Below, piece after piece: positions 9,106 through 59,032 of a stretch of 64,000 bases of DNA; within the stretch, counting starts at the first letter, position 1, and each line of letters begins with the position of its first letter. The translations under genes were made by a program, and so were the position numbers. Location: assembly GCA_948437895.1 (NCBI GenBank), contig CAOJKK010000001.1:27163-91162 (forward strand), written 5' to 3'. The notes under the pieces were generated by a model that ran no database searches, was not told the origin of the DNA, and saw nothing but the letters and a program-made list of their open reading frames with translations. This DNA is from an uncultured Clostridium sp. (lineage in GTDB: Bacteria; Bacillota; Clostridia; TANB77; CAG-508).

Positions 9106-10267
9106 CAGACTCTACCTCCTCTTCTTTTGTGTTTTCTTTTTTAATTCTTTTTACAGCCTCTTTTGCTACATCTTTTCCAACATAATCTTTATTTTCCTTA
9201 ACTATCAATTCAGCTAGTTCTTGAACTAGTTGATCGAAATTTTGCTCTTTCTTCTCAACTATTTTTTGTCTTTCTGATTTAACTTCATCTACTTTTTGTC
9301 TTGCTAACTCTAGAGCTTTTTCCTCTACCGTTTTATTTATTGCTTCCATTTTCTTGTCAAGTACATCTGGTGCCGTAGAGTAAAGTTCTCCATATCCAGC
9401 CCTAAGAGCCTTATCAATTCCATATGTTTCTGATTCATCTCTGTTATATGCAACATATAGCAATTGTGCTAAATCGTTTGAATCCATTACTCTGCATTTC
9501 ATACTACATGCAAATAGAGTTCTTGTTATTGATTGTGCTCTTGTATATAATTCAGAAAATATCATATTCTTTTTCTCTTCTTCATCTAGAAAATTACTTC
9601 CTAGTTCTGAAGCATAATATGGAATTATTATGTAATAATGTTTTCTAAGTACATTTTTATTTAAGCTCATGTTTTCAATATTTGCAACTATATCTTGTCC
9701 ATAATCTAATAAGTTTTGTTGTCTTGCAATTTCAAGTCTAACTTCTTCTAGATCTCTTCTGTCATATCCACCAGCTTGTAACATCTTATTATATTGATTT
9801 TTTCTTCTCTCTAATTCATCTTTTATATCATTTATTTTTTTATTATAATTTTCTATACTGCTTCCAATATTAATTGTTCTTGTTTGAGTATAAATTTGTA
9901 TTGGATGCCTCAAAGTATTTAAGAATTGAATAAATCCTTGTTCAACAGAAACCTTTTCCATTTCTGACATTAAATCATAATTTATTCCCTCACATTCAAT
10001 ACCCATTAAGTATCTTGTCCCATTGTTTTGAACAATCATATTATCTTCTATTTTATCAAACTCCATAAAGTCAAATACAGAAAGTTTAGTATATCCACCT
10101 TGTGTAGAAGTAGTACTTGCTTGACTACTTTTACTTTCACCATTGCTTTCTTTTGTTGATTTTTCATTTTTACTCTTAACAGACATTTGCCAATATATAA
10201 ATGCTAATACTAGGATTGCGAAAAATAAAATTACTACGGCAATTGTTAATATTTGCATTAAATCCAT
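9050..10267 (-). CDS. membrane-anchored T4SS-associated protein with VirB4-N-terminal-like segment and K/E-rich coiled-coil tail; possibly the frameshifted N-terminal part of the VirB4-like gene
   Basis: N-terminal TM (ILTIAVVILFFAILVLAFIYW), segment NMIVQNNGTRYLMGIECEGINYDLMSEME resembling the pre-ATPase region of VirB4 proteins, long charged C-terminal tail. The tail runs into an A6 run where a 1-nt deletion would fuse it in frame with the downstream ATPase ORF. Confidence 0.5.
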   Translation of the reverse strand: MDLMQILTIAVVILFFAILVLAFIYWQMSVKSKNEKSTKESNGESKSSQASTTSTQGGYTKLSVFDFMEFDKIEDNMIVQNNGTRYLMGIECEGINYDLMSEMEKVSVEQGFIQFLNTLRHPIQIYTQTRTINIGSSIENYNKKINDIKDELERRKNQYNKMLQAGGYDRRDLEEVRLEIARQQNLLDYGQDIVANIENMSLNKNVLRKHYYIIIPYYASELGSNFLDEEEKKNMIFSELYTRAQSITRTLFACSMKCRVMDSNDLAQLLYVAYNRDESETYGIDKALRAGYGELYSTAPDVLDKKMEAINKTVEEKALELARQKVDEVKSERQKIVEKKEQNFDQLVQELAELIVKENKDYVGKDVAKEAVKRIKKENTKEEEVESDVKKEKKTTRTRRTRENA

Positions 10268-19132: not shown

Positions 19133-19163
19133 TGCGACAAAAACCCCCGTCCCATTTGTCGCA
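19133..19163. repeat. GC-rich palindromic repeat, family B (TGCGACAAA-loop-TTTGTCGCA), copy 1
   Basis: Near-identical to 33007..33036; 9-bp perfect stem with ACCCCCGTCCCA loop; sits downstream of rpoC. Confidence 0.7.
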
Positions 19164-28107: not shown

Positions 28108-28172
28108 ATAATCCTTTAGGACGATTCAGGACAGTCCCCTTTTGTCCTTGCTATACAAAAGAGGGACAGTCC
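28108..28172. repeat. GC-rich palindromic repeat related to family A (two direct GGACAGTCCC cores within ACGATTC...GAATCGT inverted repeat)
   Basis: Between convergent genes; shares GTCCC/GGGAC core; abuts the stop codon of the minus-strand gene. Confidence 0.55.
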
Positions 28173-28679
28173 CTAGAATCGTTTATTAATTTTACCTAAA
28201 AATTTCCCTATGTCGTCTGAATCAATTGTTCCATAATTCAAATGCATATAGTTATTGTTTTTAAAGTCAATTTGCCATTCTCCAATAAAATAGCAATCCC
28301 CTCCATTTACTTTCCTACCCAATTCTAATGTAAGAAGTCTTGGTATTCTTTTAGTTAATACCAATGCTAAACATACAGCTTGTCCATAGTCAGTTAATGG
28401 TTTAGGCATAATGAAATTAAATACTTTCATTTCATTATCTAAGATAGAGTATGATATATTAAAATCCTCTGGTTTTATTTCTCTATCTAAATCAATAATA
28501 TCTATTTCATCAGTATATTCTAATTCTAATTTTACTTCATTCCATAATTTACAAAAATACTGTTTCAGAGTTTCTGGTCCTTCATTTAATAATAAATTAG
28601 TTTTCTCCCAATCTTCGAATATTAAGTCCCTTATTTTTTCATGTGCCATAATATAATGAATACTTGATTTGTTTTCCAT
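28173..28679 (-). CDS. hypothetical protein
   Basis: 168 aa ORF, no recognisable motif. Confidence 0.4.
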   Translation of the reverse strand: MENKSSIHYIMAHEKIRDLIFEDWEKTNLLLNEGPETLKQYFCKLWNEVKLELEYTDEIDIIDLDREIKPEDFNISYSILDNEMKVFNFIMPKPLTDYGQAVCLALVLTKRIPRLLTLELGRKVNGGDCYFIGEWQIDFKNNNYMHLNYGTIDSDDIGKFLGKINKRF

Positions 28680-33006: not shown

Positions 33007-33036
33007 TGCGACAAAACCCCCGTCCCATTTGTCGCA
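33007..33036. repeat. GC-rich palindromic repeat, family B, copy 2
   Basis: TGCGACAAAACCCCCGTCCCATTTGTCGCA; creates a spurious upstream ATG for the Crp-like ORF. Confidence 0.7.
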
Positions 33037-35870: not shown

Positions 35871-35903
35871 ATTAACTGCTTTGTTCTTTTTTATTTTCTA
35901 AAC

Positions 35904-35962
35904 ATATGCATATTCTGGGACAAAATGTCCCAGTCAGAAACGTCCCTTTTGGGACATTAGTT
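35904..35962. repeat. GC-rich palindromic repeat, family A, copy 1 (TGGGACAAAATGTCCCA + GTCCCTTTTGGGAC hairpins)
   Basis: ~90% identical to 46124..46182; between convergent purN and ftsH; its terminal TTA supplies the ftsH stop codon. Confidence 0.7.
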
Positions 35963-38921: not shown

Positions 38922-40254
38922 TTATTCTCTATATTTTTCTATATTAACAAATTTAGTATAACTTCCAAGCCACAATAATTCTACTGTTCCTGTTGATCCA
39001 CCTCTATGTTTTGCCATAATTACTTCTGCTATATTTTTCTTTTCTGAATCTGGGTTATAGTAATCATCTCTATATAAAAACATTACTATATCAGCATCTT
39101 GTTCTATCGCTCCAGATTCACGAAGGTCTGAAAGCATTGGTCTATGATCTGTTCTTTGTTCTGCAGCCCTTGATAATTGTGATAATGCAATTACTGGAAC
39201 ATCTAATTCTTTTGCTAATATTTTAAGTGATCTACTTATTTCAGAAATTTCTTGTTCACGACTAGAATTTCTTTTTCCTGTTCCTTGTATTAATTGTAAA
39301 TAATCTATTACTACAAGTCCTATATTTTTTTCCATCTTTAGTTTTCTACATTTTGCCCTTATTTCTGTAATGCTTATTCCCGGTGTATCATCAATGTATA
39401 TAGGTGCTTCTGAAAGAGGTCCTAAAGCTGTTGCAAGTTTTACCCAATCATCTTCTTCAATTTTTCCTGTTCTTATTTTATTGCTATCAACCATAGCCTC
39501 ACTGCAAAGCATTCTGTTTACAAGCTGACTCTTTGACATTTCAAGGTTAAATATTACAACTGGAACCTTTGCTTGAAGTGCTGCGTTTGTTGCTATATTT
39601 AATGCAAATGCAGATTTACCCATAGCTGGTCTTGCAGCAACTAATACTAAATCAGAATTATGAAGCCCGAGCTGTTTTATAGTCTAAATCTGCAAATCCT
39701 GTTGGAATACCTGTTATTGGCTCTTTTTGATTATATAGTTTTTCTATCTCTGCAAAGCTCTCTACCAAAATATCTTTTAATGCAGCATATCCTTTTTGAT
39801 TCTTCCCTTGTGAAATCTCGAATACCTTTTTTTCAGCTTGATCAAGAATGGCATCTAGCTCTTCCGTCTGATCATATCCTAAATCTATAAGTTCATTAGA
39901 AGCTTTTATTAATCTTCTTAAGACTGATTTCTCTTCAACTATTTTTATATATCTGTCTACATTTGCAGTTGTTGGAACTTTATCTGGTAATACTGCCAAA
40001 TATTCTAATCCTCCAACAGCTTCAAGCTTTCCTAAAGATGTTAATTCTGATTTAACTGTAATTATATCTATAGGTTCTGCTCTATTATATAAGTTTAATA
40101 TTGCTTCATATATTGTTTTATTATCTTGTCTATAGAAATCATCTGGTTTTAATACTTCAACGCTATCAATTACTGCATCCTTATCTGTAAGCATACTTCC
40201 TATTACTGCTTGTTCTGCATCAATATCATGTGGTGGTATTTTTCCTAACTCCAT
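38922..40254 (-). pseudogene. dnaB: replicative DNA helicase DnaB interrupted by a single-base frameshift near 39640 (probably a sequence error)
   Basis: ORF 39658..40254 is the DnaB N-terminal domain, ORF 38922..39623 the RecA-like C-terminal domain; the shifted frame across the gap reads [27 protein letters not shown], the DnaB Walker A region. Confidence 0.85.
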
Positions 40255-40267
40255 TTTATTCTCCTTT

Positions 40268-40352
40268 ATTTGTAAGGGGACGCATCTTTCCCCTTGGTCT
40301 CTCTATAGGGATAAGATACATCCCCATCCTTAAACCCCTAGTGATGTCAATA
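40268..40352 (-). repeat. ~85-bp structured intergenic element, family C, copy 1 (rplI-dnaB spacer)
   Basis: Near-identical to 55165..55256; contains hairpins AAGGGGA-CGCATCTT-TCCCCTT and TAAGGAT-N13-ATCCTTA plus a GTGATGTCA tail. Confidence 0.65.
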
Positions 40353-54607: not shown

Positions 54608-55150
54608 TTATTTAGACATTACCTCTTTTAAATCTTTCCAAAAATCTATTTTCTTAGTATCATCTCTAAGTAGTGCTGCTGGATGGAATGTTGGCAAATA
54701 CTTTATTCCATCTCTTTCAAACCATTTCCCTCTACTTGCTGTTATTCCATATTCTTTCCCTAGTATGTTTTTTAACGCTACACTACCTAATAGTATAATT
54801 ATTTCTGGATTTACTAATTTTATTTGGGCTTCTAAATATTCTCTGCAACAATCTGCTTCATCATACTCTGGATTTCTATTATTAGGTGGTCTGCATTTTA
54901 CTATATTTGCTATATATACTTCTTCTCTTTTTATTCCTATCCCTTGAAATGCTTTGTCCATCAACTGACCAGCTTTCCCTACAAAAGGTATTCCTTGTAT
55001 ATCTTCATCTGCTCCTGGTCCCTCGCCTATAAGCATTATTCTTGCATTCTTATTCCCTGTACCAATTACTACATTGTGTCTATTATTACACAATTTGCAT
55101 TTAGTACAATTTTTACATTCATTTTCTAACTCTTCCCATGTTTGATACAT
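54608..55150 (-). CDS. uracil-DNA glycosylase, family 4
   Basis: GEGPGADEDIQGIPFVGKAGQLM family-4 UDG motif and N-terminal Cys cluster. Confidence 0.8.
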   Translation of the reverse strand: MYQTWEELENECKNCTKCKLCNNRHNVVIGTGNKNARIMLIGEGPGADEDIQGIPFVGKAGQLMDKAFQGIGIKREEVYIANIVKCRPPNNRNPEYDEADCCREYLEAQIKLVNPEIIILLGSVALKNILGKEYGITASRGKWFERDGIKYLPTFHPAALLRDDTKKIDFWKDLKEVMSK

Positions 55151-55164
55151 ATTTTACTCCTTTT

Positions 55165-55256
55165 CTTGTAAGGGGACGCATCTTTCCCCTTGGTCTTTCT
55201 CTAAGGATAAGATACATCCCCATCCTTATCATCTGGTGATGTCAGTTTTCATATTT
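55165..55256 (-). repeat. ~90-bp structured intergenic element, family C, copy 2
   Basis: CTTGTAAGGGGACGCATCTTTCCCCTTGGTCT...GGATAAGATACATCCCCATCCTTATCATCTGGTGATGTCAGTTTTC, about 90% identical to copy 1. Confidence 0.65.
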
Positions 55257-55262
55257 TATTTA

Positions 55263-56678
55263 CTATAATAAACACATTAATGCTGTGTTTCTTCCCGCTT
55301 CTATTCCGTCTTTTCTATATGAATGGATTATATCACTATTACAAAAACTACAAATTTTACTATCAACAATGTTTTCTTCTAATATTCCTTGTTTTAATAG
55401 TAGGTTTTTATTTATTTCTACAGTATTTATGAAGTAACTATTAGTTTCTTTGTTGTATTTAATAATCTCATCTATATTATTCATAGATTTAAACTCATTA
55501 TAGAATAGGTCTCTTACATCTTTTTGAACCTCAAAATGACACTCTCTAATTGTTGGACCAATTATGCATATTATATCTTCTGTATTACAGCTATATCTCT
55601 TTTTCATAAATTCTATTGCTTTTTCTGCTATTCTCTTTACAGTTCCTTGCCATCCTGAATGAATATTTCCAATAATTCTTTTATTCTTATCAAATAAATA
55701 TATCGGCGTACAATCTGCGAATGTTAAAGATAGTATTTTATTCTTTTTGTCAGTTACCAGTCCATCTACATCTTCTAATTCTTTAGGAAATACTCCAATC
55801 TCTTCCGCTACTTCTTTCACATTGTTTGTATGTGTTTGATATGGTCTTACTATATTCTTGCTATCTAGTTTTAATAATTCACATGCTAATTTGTAATTAC
55901 TATCAAATTTTTCTTTTCCCTCTTTGTATGTGTCATTACTACCAAAATCAAGTGGCTTTAATGTAAATGCATGCGATAAAACATCACTGTATTTTAGTAA
56001 TCTTTTGAACTGCAAAATTCTTGAGTTTTCATCTTGAATTATAACTACTTCATCATTTATTATTTTACTTCCTATTATTTCTTTTATATCTTCTACTATT
56101 TTTTCTAAACTGTATTTATTATTATTTACAATTACAATATTAGAATTTTTAATATAGAAATCATTTTCAGGTTGAGCACTTATTCTATCTGTAGCACAGT
56201 CTTCATCTATATTATCCCTTAGACAAATTCTTTCCATTTTTATATCTTCATCTGCTATCACTGATATTACTATATCACACATCTCATTTAATTTACTTTC
56301 AATTAAAAGAGGTGCGTCAATTATAACTGTTTTATCTCTATTTAAACTTACTCTTTTACTTATCTCTTCTACTACATATTTGAATGTAAGTAAATTTAAC
56401 ATTTCTCTTTTTTCTTTGTCTGCAAATATTATACTTGCAAGTTTTGATTTATCTATTTCTCCGTTTTCTAATAAAATGCCTTTTCCAAACTCTTTTACTA
56501 TTTCTTTAAAATAAACTTCACCTGGCATAGACATCTCTTTTACTACTTTATCTGCATCTATAACACATGTATCAGGGTCTGTCCCTTTTGCGACATTTTG
56601 TCGCATTGGGACTGTCCCCAATGCACTGCTTATTGATGTTTTACCGCTTCCAGAGTTCCCAGTTATACCTATTATCAT
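55263..56678 (-). CDS. coaE: fused dephospho-CoA kinase / YfiH(PgeF)-family purine nucleoside phosphorylase-like protein, with a palindromic repeat inserted in frame after the P-loop
   Basis: N-terminus MIIGITGNSGSGKTS (CoaE P-loop), ...VIDADK; C-terminal half has PgeF motifs (PYQTHTNNV, LTFADCTPIYLFD, GNIHSGWQG, CSFC). Confidence 0.75.
   Translation of the reverse strand: MIIGITGNSGSGKTSISSALGTVPMRQNVAKGTDPDTCVIDADKVVKEMSMPGEVYFKEIVKEFGKGILLENGEIDKSKLASIIFADKEKREMLNLLTFKYVVEEISKRVSLNRDKTVIIDAPLLIESKLNEMCDIVISVIADEDIKMERICLRDNIDEDCATDRISAQPENDFYIKNSNIVIVNNNKYSLEKIVEDIKEIIGSKIINDEVVIIQDENSRILQFKRLLKYSDVLSHAFTLKPLDFGSNDTYKEGKEKFDSNYKLACELLKLDSKNIVRPYQTHTNNVKEVAEEIGVFPKELEDVDGLVTDKKNKILSLTFADCTPIYLFDKNKRIIGNIHSGWQGTVKRIAEKAIEFMKKRYSCNTEDIICIIGPTIRECHFEVQKDVRDLFYNEFKSMNNIDEIIKYNKETNSYFINTVEINKNLLLKQGILEENIVDSKICSFCNSDIIHSYRKDGIEAGRNTALMCLL
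56575..56622. repeat. intragenic copy of the GTCCC/GGGAC - TGCGACA/TGTCGCA palindromic element, inserted in frame in coaE
   Basis: GGGTCTGTCCCTTTTGCGACATTTTGTCGCATTGGGACTGTCCCCA; nested inverted repeats; translates to SALGTVPMRQNVAKGTDPD between the P-loop and the VIDADK motif. Confidence 0.7.
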
Positions 56679-56707
56679 AGTTACCTTCCTTTAAAATTTA
56701 AGTTTTT

Positions 56708-56765
56708 TATGACTAGATAATATCATAAAAGCAGATAATTTTCAATTAATTATCTGCTCTATATA
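56708..56765 (-). terminator. ~57-bp direct repeat copy 1 containing an 11-bp-stem terminator hairpin (AGCAGATAATT-TTCAATT-AATTATCTGCT)
   Basis: Identical apart from 2 mismatches to 58965..59020; downstream of the GNAT gene. Confidence 0.65.
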
Positions 56766-58945: not shown

Positions 58946-58964
58946 CCTTTTAATTTATGTATTG

Positions 58965-59020
58965 TATGACCAGATAATATCATAAGAGCAGATAATTTTC
59001 AATTAATTATCTGCTCTATA
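58965..59020 (-). terminator. ~57-bp direct repeat copy 2 with the same terminator hairpin
   Basis: TATGACCAGATAATATCATAAGAGCAGATAATTTTCAATTAATTATCTGCTCTATA. Confidence 0.65.
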
Positions 59021-59032
59021 TTAAGTAGTTAA

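What the first reader, a model, noticed from the sequence alone, without database searches (positions are those of the whole stretch)
56575..56622. Palindromic repeat element inserted in frame inside coaE, directly after the P-loop
The 48-nt sequence GGGTCTGTCCCTTTTGCGACATTTTGTCGCATTGGGACTGTCCCCA combines the GTCCC/GGGAC and TGCGACA/TGTCGCA half-sites found in the intergenic repeat families A and B. It sits inside the coaE-pgeF coding sequence and adds about 16 residues (ALGTVPMRQNVAKGTD) between GSGKTS and VIDADK without breaking the frame.

In-frame intragenic spread of a palindromic element is reminiscent of Rickettsia RPEs and is unusual for Firmicutes. Its position next to the nucleotide-binding loop raises the question of whether CoaE activity is retained.
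Basis: seen in the sequence. Interest (0 to 1): 0.7.

Follow-up and report, generated by a model that had tools for sequence, protein, structure and literature searches.

The report
Mobile palindromic repeat inside coaE gene
A 46-base GC-rich nested palindrome, belonging to an undescribed repeat family scattered through uncultured low-GC gut Clostridia, sits in frame inside the essential coaE gene and adds a floppy 11-residue loop without visibly damaging the enzyme, much like the palindromic elements known from Rickettsia.

Summary
Window 56575-56620 is a nested palindrome, unique in the window, and folds far better than shuffles (z -6.2). It lies in frame in a coaE-pgeF fusion gene (55263-56678, minus strand).

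Orthologues 86-87% identical lack it (460 vs 471 aa). Others carry it with a nearly identical nucleotide core (39/40), although the rest of the gene is only 76% identical. One lineage carries a decayed copy.

The same ~46-nt element occurs elsewhere in related metagenome-assembled genomes. It is in frame in nadD, in a different reading frame. It also occurs at seven non-coding sites, each abutting the upstream gene's stop codon. The consensus has no stop codon in any of the six frames.

AlphaFold2 places the insert in a low-confidence loop between helix α1 and strand β2. The rest of the CoaE and PgeF folds are confident and match solved structures.

Presence or absence disagrees with the gene tree in three filled/empty pairs. 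This indicates recent gain and/or transfer of the allele between lineages. No transposase was found.

This is a new member of the known kind "in-frame palindromic selfish repeats". Its mobilisation mechanism is unknown.

The parts
55263..56678 (-). coaE-pgeF fusion gene (471 aa) that hosts the element
   Evidence: ORF. Pfam CoaE 3.6e-36 and Cu-oxidase_4 3.8e-56. AF2 mean pLDDT is 93.6. Foldseek matches YfiH/PgeF and dephospho-CoA kinase structures.
56575..56621 (-). The palindromic element, reading on the coding strand TTGGGGACAGTCCCAATGCGACAAAATGTCGCAAAAGGGACAGACCC
   Evidence: Exact unique match. It aligns with 16 other copies from related genomes. nhmmer E = 9e-8 against the family profile.
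56589..56605 (.). Inner palindrome, 7-bp arms TGCGACA/TGTCGCA with a 3-nt spacer
   Evidence: The pairs hold in 95.8% of cells across 17 copies.
56581..56585 (.). Outer stem arm GTCCC (+ strand)
   Evidence: helix 1, 95.3% of cells paired.
56608..56612 (.). Outer stem arm GGGAC (+ strand), partner of 56581-56585
56603..56624 (.). Alternative left-end palindrome GCATTGGGAC-TGTCCCCAATGC. It gives the GGGGACAGTCCCC module shared with the repeat at 28128-28173.
   Evidence: Reported as an 8-bp hairpin. The module is seen.
56574..56621 (-). Codons 20-35 (LGTVPMRQNVAKGTDP), the peptide encoded by the element
   Evidence: Translation. PDB CoaE alignments open a 12-residue gap here. Insert-free orthologues read SISKLLEKELNTY.
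56583..56606 (-). Codons 25-32, the segment with AF2 pLDDT below 50 (predicted disordered loop)
   Evidence: helix 13-21, strand 37-41, residues 25-32 below 50.
19133..19163 (.). Related intergenic repeat with the same GCGACA arms around a CCCCCGTCCC core
33007..33036 (.). Second copy of that repeat, immediately upstream of the ribosome-binding site of a Crp-family gene
28128..28173 (.). Related intergenic repeat carrying GGACAGTCCCC and GGGACAGTCCC modules
   Evidence: nhmmer E = 0.33.
35916..35956 (.). Related intergenic repeat TGGGACAAAATGTCCCA + AGAAACGTCCC + GGGACA. Its inner hairpin is the same as the element's except for G/C swaps in both arms.
   Evidence: (family D7).
46137..46177 (.). 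Second copy of the D7 repeat

Best explanation
The sequence is one copy of a short (~46 nt) GC-rich nested-palindrome repeat family, which behaves as non-autonomous mobile DNA. The consensus is ATTGGGGACAGTCCCC-ATGCGACA-WWWW-GTCGCA-AAAGGGACATAT. The family is dispersed in a clade of uncultured gut Clostridia with about 28% G+C.

**Shown:**
- This copy landed in the coaE domain of a coaE-pgeF fusion gene, at the C-terminal end of helix α1.
- It replaced a few native codons and added a net 11 residues. These are translated as LGTVPMRQNVAKGTDP.

**Inferred:**
- The copy persists for two reasons. The element has no stop codon in any frame, and the insertion point is a helix-to-strand connecting loop on the side of the P-loop kinase fold away from the active site. 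The enzyme therefore still works.
- Once in a gene, the copy can stay intact, flip its loop (AAAA<->TTTT), be passed between related lineages by homologous recombination, or decay under AT mutational pressure into an ordinary loop peptide.
- The mobilising enzyme and insertion chemistry are unknown. Action in trans by a hairpin-recognising enzyme on single-stranded DNA (a Y1/HUH transposase of the RAYT or IS200 type) is a guess, not a result.
For: **Insertion polymorphism**
- Proteins 86-87% identical (P0005, P0006; 460 aa) lack the segment. P0002-4, 7, 9-11, 16 and 119 carry it.
- DNA of three filled/empty pairs was read: L002 vs L001, L004 vs L149, L153 vs L154.

**Dispersal**
- The same composite occurs in frame in nadD (L055, L010, decaying in L152). 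There it is read in a different frame as IGDSPHATKCRKRD.
- It also occurs at seven distinct non-coding sites: after smc, after ruvC, two spacers in L048, and in L033, L067 and L097.

**Nucleotide rather than protein conservation**
- The core is 39/40 identical between the window and L004, while the rest of the gene is 76% identical.
- Non-coding and coding copies share the same core.

**Compatibility with coding**
- The consensus is open in all six frames. Only 0.1% of window 46-mers and 0.4% of composition-matched shuffles are.

**Tolerance by the protein**
- AF2 mean pLDDT is 93.6, and only residues 25-32 fall below 50, between helix 13-21 and strand 37-41.
- The model matches CoaE structures with TM up to 0.82 and PgeF structures with TM 0.85.
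- Invariant catalytic columns (G7, G10, G12, K13, D43 and others) are kept.

**Life cycle**
- A decayed copy sits at the same place in L006/P0037 and P0041.
- Loop flips occur in L150 coaE (MRHFVA) and in nadD proteins P0132-134 (ATFCRK).
- L153 carries the insert together with flanking codons typical of another clade, while the rest of its gene is 90% identical to the empty L154. This indicates a recombination tract.

**Discordance with the gene tree**
-.
Against: - No transposase and no target-site duplication were found. Native nucleotides are replaced rather than duplicated.
- In nadD the element occupies a block of exactly the same length (39 nt) as an unrelated-looking sequence in close relatives. 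That looks like conversion or replacement rather than simple insertion.
- Only one full copy lies in the 64-kb window, and copy number per genome could not be measured.
- All evidence comes from metagenome assemblies. Translation of the insert and CoaE activity are inferred, not measured.
- The strong nucleotide conservation could also reflect a host function.
Confidence: 0.8

Rival explanations
1. The palindrome is mainly a functional cis-element: a binding site for a dimeric DNA-binding protein, or an mRNA hairpin that sets mRNA stability or translation. On this view selection maintains it, and the coaE and nadD copies are selected regulatory sites rather than selfish insertions.
For: - The core is almost invariant across lineages whose housekeeping genes are only 76% identical.
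- The element is built from repeated TG[C/G]GACA half-sites. Arrays of these also occur just upstream of genes (window 33007 and 35916; L021; L054).
- All seven non-coding copies abut a stop codon. That position suits control of the mRNA 3' end or of translation termination.
- Two paired changes keep the inner stem. One of them, in L152, was read directly.
Against: - The copy is absent from close relatives with no sign of compensation.
- The palindrome is allowed to decay completely in L006 and P0041 and partly in L153 and L152, while the peptide-length insert stays.
- No Rfam family matches.
- No T-run follows the hairpin on the coding strand.
- Covariation support is weak because most pairs never vary.
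- Host use and selfish spread are not mutually exclusive, as REP elements show.
Confidence: 0.12
2. There was a single ancient insertion. The patchy distribution comes only from allele exchange by homologous recombination and from decay, so the element is no longer mobile.
For: - All filled coaE alleles sit at the same place and in the same frame. The two filled/empty pairs compared at the junction both show net +33 nt.
- L153 shows a recombination tract that carries the insert plus flanking codons of another clade.
- The right end of the decayed L006 copy (CACATCCTGATA) resembles the main-clade type.
Against: - L004 has native flanks identical to its empty sister L149. Its right end (GGGACACATTTTTAT) is unlike the main-clade coaE copies and closer to the non-coding consensus (GGGACATATnTTT). 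This points to a separate donor.
- The element sits at about ten unrelated loci with near-identical cores, so it spread recently somewhere.
- L002 (filled) and L001 (empty) are 95% identical in the rest of the gene, which indicates recent change of state.
Confidence: 0.05
3. The sequence is an assembly or sequencing artefact, or a chance palindrome in a lineage-specific loop.
For: - The window comes from a metagenome-type assembly.
- dnaB in the same window carries an apparent 1-nt frameshift.
- L005 has a frameshift just upstream of the element.
Against: - The same insert is present in at least six independent assemblies from different samples.
- The full string has zero expected chance matches.
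- The fold z-score is -6.2.
Confidence: 0.01

Closest known systems
Rickettsia palindromic elements (RPE; Ogata et al. 2000, as summarised in PMC10969869)
   Same: - Palindromic repeats dispersed in an AT-rich genome.
- Many copies are inserted in frame into unrelated housekeeping genes and translated as extra peptide segments that fit the host protein fold.
- No transposase has been identified.
- Copies decay in place.
   Different: - RPEs are about 100-150 bp and restricted to Rickettsia, according to the review read. This element is about 46 nt and occurs in Clostridia.
- No sequence relationship is expected, and none was tested.
- Only two host genes have been found so far, against dozens for RPEs.
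- This element is stop-free in all six frames.
- Its non-coding copies abut stop codons.
REP / REPIN elements mobilised by RAYT transposases (PMC3116915, PMC2817692)
   Same: - Short GC-rich imperfect palindromes.
- Highly conserved within a lineage.
- Usually located just downstream of genes.
- Non-autonomous.
- Modular or mosaic arrangements occur.
   Different: - REPs are extragenic by definition. They carry a conserved 5' GTAG-type tetranucleotide and occur with a single-copy RAYT gene flanked by REPs.
- Here there is no GTAG.
- No RAYT or IS200-type gene was found in 314 kb of sampled low-GC DNA.
- Two copies are intragenic.
Bacterial MITEs with intragenic in-frame copies (ERIC, QMITE1 of Coxiella, Anabaena MITEs; PMC10969869)
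   Same: Small non-autonomous repeats that can create in-frame fusions with host ORFs.
   Different: - MITEs have terminal inverted repeats plus target-site duplications and are usually 100-400 bp.
- Here no duplication is seen, and native bases are lost at the junction.
GC-rich palindromic clusters in AT-rich yeast mitochondrial genomes, including the translationally bypassed 'byp' elements of Magnusiomyces (from memory, not checked here)
   Same: Short GC-rich hairpin elements that spread in a very AT-rich genome and land inside protein-coding genes.
   Different: - Byps interrupt the frame and are skipped by the ribosome.
- Here every intact copy in a gene is in frame and stop-free. Its amino-acid sequence drifts as a translated loop would.

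Membership tests
RPE-like in-frame palindromic selfish repeats (behavioural class) | Repeat with strong self-complementarity | tested here: met
   The fold is -28.3 kcal/mol with z = -6.2. Across 17 copies, 95.6% of stem cells are paired.
RPE-like in-frame palindromic selfish repeats (behavioural class) | Multiple copies at non-orthologous loci | tested here: met
   Copies occur in coaE, in nadD and at seven non-coding sites in related MAGs. Copy number within a single genome is known only as at least 4, in BRZ_NF__bin38: L010, L067 and two copies in L048.
RPE-like in-frame palindromic selfish repeats (behavioural class) | In-frame copies in protein-coding genes, absent from orthologues | tested here: met
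   For coaE, 471 aa against 460 aa, with empty-site DNA read. For nadD the copy uses another frame.
RPE-like in-frame palindromic selfish repeats (behavioural class) | Insert sits where the protein fold tolerates it | tested here: met
   In the AF2 model only residues 25-32 have low confidence, in the α1-β2 loop. The fold matches CoaE structures. Enzyme activity was not measured.
Rickettsia RPE families proper | Sequence homology to RPE consensus sequences; host is Rickettsia; length about 100-150 bp | tested here: not met
   The host is a low-GC Clostridia MAG lineage (record titles) and the length is about 46 nt. Sequence comparison with RPE consensus sequences was not run.
REP/REPIN-RAYT | Extragenic location at high copy number | tested here: inconclusive
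   Seven non-coding copies were found but two are intragenic. Genome-wide copy number is not measurable with the data held (one search was truncated).
REP/REPIN-RAYT | Conserved 5' GTAG-type tetranucleotide next to the hairpin | tested here: not met
   The alignment of 17 copies shows ATTGGGGAC or ATAGGGAC at the 5' end, with no GTAG.
REP/REPIN-RAYT | Cognate RAYT (Y1 transposase) gene in the genome, flanked by the repeats | tested here: inconclusive
Whole genomes were not available.
MITE | Target-site duplication flanking the element | tested here: not met
   Filled versus empty coaE sites show 9 or 15 native nucleotides replaced and no duplicated flank.
MITE | Terminal inverted repeats shared with a parent insertion sequence | not testable with these tools
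   The arms are inverted repeats, but no parent insertion sequence could be searched for in complete genomes.
IS200/IS605-derived palindrome-associated elements | Insertion 3' of a fixed tetra- or pentanucleotide, in one orientation, without duplication | tested here: inconclusive
   Left flanks end in ATT or ATA, often preceded by TGA or TAA. The sample of about 10 sites is too small to define a motif.
Known structured RNA families (Rfam 15) | Match to a covariance model | tested here: not met
   There were no hits at gathering thresholds in the window and none at E <= 1 in 56450-56750.

The most novel reading that the evidence does not exclude
The element is a coding-compatible selfish DNA with real target preference. 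It has evolved to lack stops in all six frames. It enters or converts the same short site in coaE, and a site in nadD, independently in different lineages. Elsewhere it lands exactly at stop codons. It does this by a mechanism that replaces a block of target DNA rather than cutting and pasting, for example hairpin-templated repair or conversion by an unknown enzyme. That would be a mode of spread not described for bacterial repeats.
Probability: 0.2. Interest if true: 0.8.

Novelty: new member of a known kind. Interest (0 to 1): 0.6.

Why it matters
- **Wider occurrence of the phenomenon.** In-frame colonisation of essential genes by palindromic repeats is best known from Rickettsia. This finding shows it also happens in free-living, very AT-rich gut Clostridia known only from metagenomes.
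- **A compact study system.** The element is 46 nt. Filled, empty, loop-flipped, recombined and decayed alleles are all available. This lets one ask how such elements move, why they are tolerated, and how they seed new loop sequences in enzymes.
- **A practical consequence for annotation.** Gene callers already truncate some of these coaE genes at the ATG or GTG inside the element (P0008 and P0012 start at MRQNVAKG). In at least P0008 this follows an upstream frameshift.

Tried and rejected
- **Peptide search of the protein database.** I queried with a concatenate of the twelve possible element-encoded peptides to find other host genes. Only 23 candidates shared words and none scored. This is a failure of the method for short segments, not evidence of absence.
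- **Genome-collection scan with the 17-mer TGCGACAAAATGTCGCA.** It is therefore not a census.
- **Metagenome scan with GGGACAGTCCCNNTGCGACA.** It found six low-GC loci at three distinct sites. It also found 19 high-GC contigs carrying an unrelated repeat that shares only the left module, which I treated as coincidental.
- **Viral contigs and plasmids.** No copies, so there is no sign of a phage or plasmid vector.
- **Y1 transposase search by tblastn.** Nothing was found.
- **Rfam.** Nothing was found.
- **AddB genes split in L005, L006 and L150.** I checked whether they hide another copy. For the two junctions inspected (L005, L006), the L005 split looks like a 1-nt indel and no copy of the element lies there.
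- **Translational bypass or excision of the insert.** Rejected because all intact genic copies are in frame and stop-free, and their amino acids drift as translated sequence does.
- **Organism name.** It could not be recovered.
Full report
**1. The observation**

The quoted string is 46 nt long. It occurs exactly once in the window, at 56575-56620 on the + strand, and none of 100 shuffles gave a match. Its architecture is nested:
- An inner perfect palindrome, TGCGACA-TTT-TGTCGCA (56589-56605), is unique in the window.
- GTCCC (56581-56585) and GGGAC (56608-56612) enclose it.
- The left end on the coding strand is itself a palindrome, GCATTGGGGACAGTCCCAATGC (56603-56624).

The coding-strand RNA folds at -28.3 kcal/mol, against -13.2 +/- 2.4 for shuffles (z = -6.2). 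The element is about 56% G+C, in a window of 28.9% G+C.

It lies in a 471-aa ORF on the minus strand (55263-56678). That ORF is a fusion of dephospho-CoA kinase (Pfam CoaE, aa 1-188) and the peptidoglycan editing factor domain (Cu-oxidase_4/PgeF, aa 252-468).

The half-sites recur in several intergenic repeats of the window: 19133-19163 and 33007-33036, 28128-28173, and 35916-35956 and 46137-46177. None of these is a full copy of the element.

**2. It is an insertion relative to orthologues**

Solved CoaE structures align with a 12-residue gap opposite GTVPMRQNVAKG. Among 120 listed homologues of the fusion protein:
- The closest ones of 468-472 aa carry GTVPMRQNVAKGTD-like segments: P0002-4, 7, 9-11, 16 and 119.
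- Equally close ones of 459-462 aa read GKTSISKLL-EKE-LNTYIIDAD instead. P0005 and P0006 are 86-87% identical to the window protein.

I fetched DNA for five further filled alleles (L002/L003, L004, L005, L150, L153), three empty alleles (L001, L149, L154) and one decayed allele (L006).

In the two filled/empty pairs compared at the junction, the filled allele is 33 nt longer:
- L001 vs L002: 9 native nucleotides (GAAAAAGAA) are replaced by 42.
- L149 vs L004: 15 native nucleotides are replaced by 48.

No target-site duplication is present. The net gain is therefore 11 residues, not 16.

**3. The conservation is at the nucleotide level**

The 40-nt core is 39/40 identical between the window and L004. 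The rest of the gene is 76% identical. In L006 (P0037), and by its protein sequence also in P0041, a segment of the same length sits at the same place. In L006 the palindrome has decayed to GGAAACAGTCACCATTGGGCATTTTGACAAATTTGGAGCAC.

L153 has lost the left arm of the inner stem. L150 has the four loop bases inverted (AAAA to TTTT), which changes MRQNVA to MRHFVA.

**4. It belongs to a dispersed family**

Every hit in low-GC Clostridia MAGs carried the inner palindrome within related repeat sequence, and most carried the full composite. A metagenome scan with the left module added three more sites. The oriented copies align over about 46 nt.

Two copies (L055, L010) lie in frame in a 177-aa gene of the cytidylyltransferase family. 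Its best solved relatives are nicotinate-nucleotide adenylyltransferases (NadD). There the element is read in a different frame, as IGDSPHATKCRKRD.

Among the 120 listed NadD orthologues:
- Many carry this peptide or graded derivatives of it (GDSFHATKCCKKD, ENSPYQAKCCIEK and others).
- Some have the loop-flipped form (ATFCRK).
- Close relatives (84% identical) have an unrelated-looking segment of the same length (HKSEFAKETNREK).

At the DNA level, L055 and L151 differ by a 39-nt block between near-identical flanks.

Seven other sites are non-coding:
- after smc (L124/L143/L145 and L126/L141);
- after ruvC (L147);
- in two short spacers, one of them just upstream of a pyrD-like gene (L048, two copies);
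- in L033, L067 and L097.

No copy was found in viral contigs or plasmids. No paper in the searchable library contains the motif in a bacterial context.

**5. Why it is tolerated**

The consensus has no stop codon in any of the six frames. Only 0.1% of window 46-mers and 0.4% of composition-matched shuffles share this property.

An AlphaFold2 model built on 58 orthologues has mean pLDDT 93.6. Helix α1 spans residues 13-21 and strand β2 spans 37-41. Only residues 25-32, inside the insert, fall below pLDDT 50. The model superposes on solved PgeF/YfiH structures (TM 0.85) and on dephospho-CoA kinases (TM up to 0.82, rmsd 2.2 Å). The P-loop and the DAD motif are among the invariant columns.

By the standard topology of P-loop kinases, α1 starts at the phosphate-binding loop and runs away from it. 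The α1-β2 connection therefore lies on the face opposite the active site. This step is inferred from established knowledge of the fold and was not measured on the model.

The nadD copy also sits between a helix and the following strand (IMGSD).

**6. Dynamics**

Presence or absence disagrees with the phylogeny of the rest of the gene (nucleotide identities; rough NJ protein tree):
- Empty L001 is 95% identical to filled L002. It is nested among filled alleles (window 92%, L005 91%).
- Filled L004 is 87% identical to empty L149, but only 76-77% identical to the main-clade filled alleles.
- Filled L153 is 90% identical to empty L154, but only 79% identical to the main-clade filled alleles.

Empty alleles keep an ancestral-looking EKE/KKE/RKE stretch that filled alleles lack. 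They were therefore not produced by excision.

L153 carries the insert together with flanking codons (SI|LGTV...LNTYII) that are typical of another clade. This indicates transfer of the filled allele by a short homologous-recombination tract.

L004 keeps flanks identical to its empty sister. Its right end (GGGACACATTTTTAT) is closer to the non-coding consensus than to the other coaE copies, which suggests a separate acquisition.

I conclude that recent change of state is certain. The shares due to new insertion, conversion and allele exchange remain open.

**7. Mechanism**

- **Shown:** a dispersed, conserved, nested palindrome; in-frame genic copies in two genes and two frames; no target duplication; replacement of native bases; loop inversion in place; decay in place.
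- **Inferred:** spread as non-autonomous DNA mobilised in trans, and survival of genic copies only where they are in frame, stop-free and in a permissive loop.
- **Not found:** any transposase. tblastn with IS608 and IS200 TnpA sequences on 314 kb gave nothing convincing.

Stem pairs are kept in 95.6% of cells across 17 copies, but almost all pairs are invariant. Only two paired changes are seen, one of them GCGACA/GTCGC to GCAACA/GTTGC in L152. Covariation therefore says little.

A host function, as a protein-binding site or an mRNA hairpin, cannot be excluded and is the main rival. Against it stand the absence of the element from close relatives and its free decay. For it stand the extreme conservation and the stop-codon position of the non-coding copies.

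**8. Comparison with known systems**

In behaviour this matches Rickettsia palindromic elements. RPEs are dispersed palindromes inserted in frame into unrelated housekeeping genes and compatible with the host fold (review PMC10969869). It is not a member of those families, because host, length and presumably sequence all differ.

It resembles REP/REPIN elements in size, GC-richness and position downstream of genes. However, it lacks the GTAG signature, and no RAYT gene was seen. It fails the MITE criterion of a target-site duplication.

I file it as a new member of the known kind "in-frame palindromic selfish repeats". Three features deserve follow-up:
- It is open in all six frames.
- The same coaE site is occupied in lineages whose relatives are empty.
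- All non-coding copies abut a stop codon.

**9. Limits**

- All sequences are metagenome assemblies.
- The organism could not be named.
- Genome-wide copy number is unknown.
- Translation of the insert and enzyme activity are inferred.
- The search for further host genes failed for technical reasons.

Noticed in passing
L033 ~1811-1862; L097 ~470-520; L124 3598-3645 (also L143, L145, L126, L141); L147 1368-1417; L067 1955-2005; L048 3286-3334 and 2443-2487: All seven distinct non-coding copies of the element start 0-1 nt from the in-frame stop codon of the upstream gene. The junctions read TGA|TTGGGGAC, TAG|GGACAG, TAA|TGGAGAC, or TAG|GGTGCGTCCC at the other end. In the ATAGGGAC variant the stop codon is formed by the element's own first bases. 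The smc and ruvC genes end in nearly identical GAAATTG[A/T]AATAG.
   Followed up: partly
L055 1649-1708 vs L151 (nadD at 10001-10534) and L152 10266-10325: In nadD the element occupies a 39-nt block. In 84%-identical relatives this block is replaced by an unrelated-looking sequence of exactly the same length between near-identical flanks. This looks like block conversion rather than simple insertion. L152 shows a decaying copy in which paired changes in both arms (GCGACA to GCAACA, TGTCGC to TGTTGC) keep the inner stem.
   Followed up: partly
window 38922-40254 (-), around 39665-39675: dnaB is split into two ORFs, with the N-terminal domain at 39658-40254 and DnaB_C at 38922-39623. The cause is an apparent single extra base (GCTCGGGCTT). 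Removing one base restores ...[21 protein letters not shown].... This is probably an assembly error, but it could be a real frameshift.
   Followed up: partly
window 40252-40332 and 55148-55228: An 81-nt repeat (90% identical) with two GGGGA...TCCCC hairpins lies directly upstream of the ribosome-binding sites of dnaB and of the uracil-DNA glycosylase gene. There is no Rfam match. The pgeF-UDG spacer varies in length among relatives (about 22 nt in L002, about 115 nt in L001 and L005), so this may be another mobile or regulatory repeat.
   Followed up: no
window 56695-56764 and 58952-59021: A 70-nt direct repeat (93% identical, containing a terminator-like hairpin) brackets a 2.2-kb block of four genes encoding a GNAT, an XRE-type HTH protein, a second GNAT and a thioesterase. 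In relatives (L004, L005, L006, L150, L153) coaE follows coaD directly, so this block looks like an inserted cassette.
   Followed up: no
window 35890-35962 and 46111-46183; L021 ~930-1080; L054 ~495-545: A second repeat type has the form TG[C/G]GACAAAATGTC[G/C]CA + nnAGAAACGTCCC + another [C/G]GACA half-site. In L021 and L054 it lies just upstream of gene starts, and in L054 it runs into the radA start codon. The G/C swaps occur in both arms, so the hairpin is kept.
   Followed up: no
L125, L127-L140, L142, L144, L146, L148 (metagenome contigs of 58-70% G+C): A repeat in an unrelated high-GC organism shares the palindrome GGGGACAGTCCCC followed by TGCGACA. Its form is TTCAAAAAAG-GGGACAGTCCCC[C/G]TGCGACA...GGAAGGGGACAGTCCCC, and it is present on many contigs of a few samples. 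This is probably coincidence amplified by a local repeat family.
   Followed up: no
L124 3646-3680 and ~3790 (also L143, L145): Another GC-rich repeat, CTGTAGGGGCGGAATCCATTTCCGCCC, begins with a REP-like GTAG. It lies immediately next to the element downstream of smc. It is absent from the otherwise identical site in L126 and L141.
   Followed up: no
L005 4937-5000: The coaE allele of L005 has a frameshift in the P-loop codons (GGTTCACGG instead of GGAAGCGG) just upstream of the element. The gene was therefore called from the GTG inside the element (P0008 starts at MRQNVAKG). This is either a sequencing error or a pseudogene.
   Followed up: partly
proteins P0132, P0185, P0219 (nadD orthologues): Some nadD orthologues carry extra THRVHG-like repeats (for example TRDTHRVHGTHRAHSTHH) directly adjacent to the element-derived peptide. 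This suggests further repeat expansion at the same spot.
   Followed up: no
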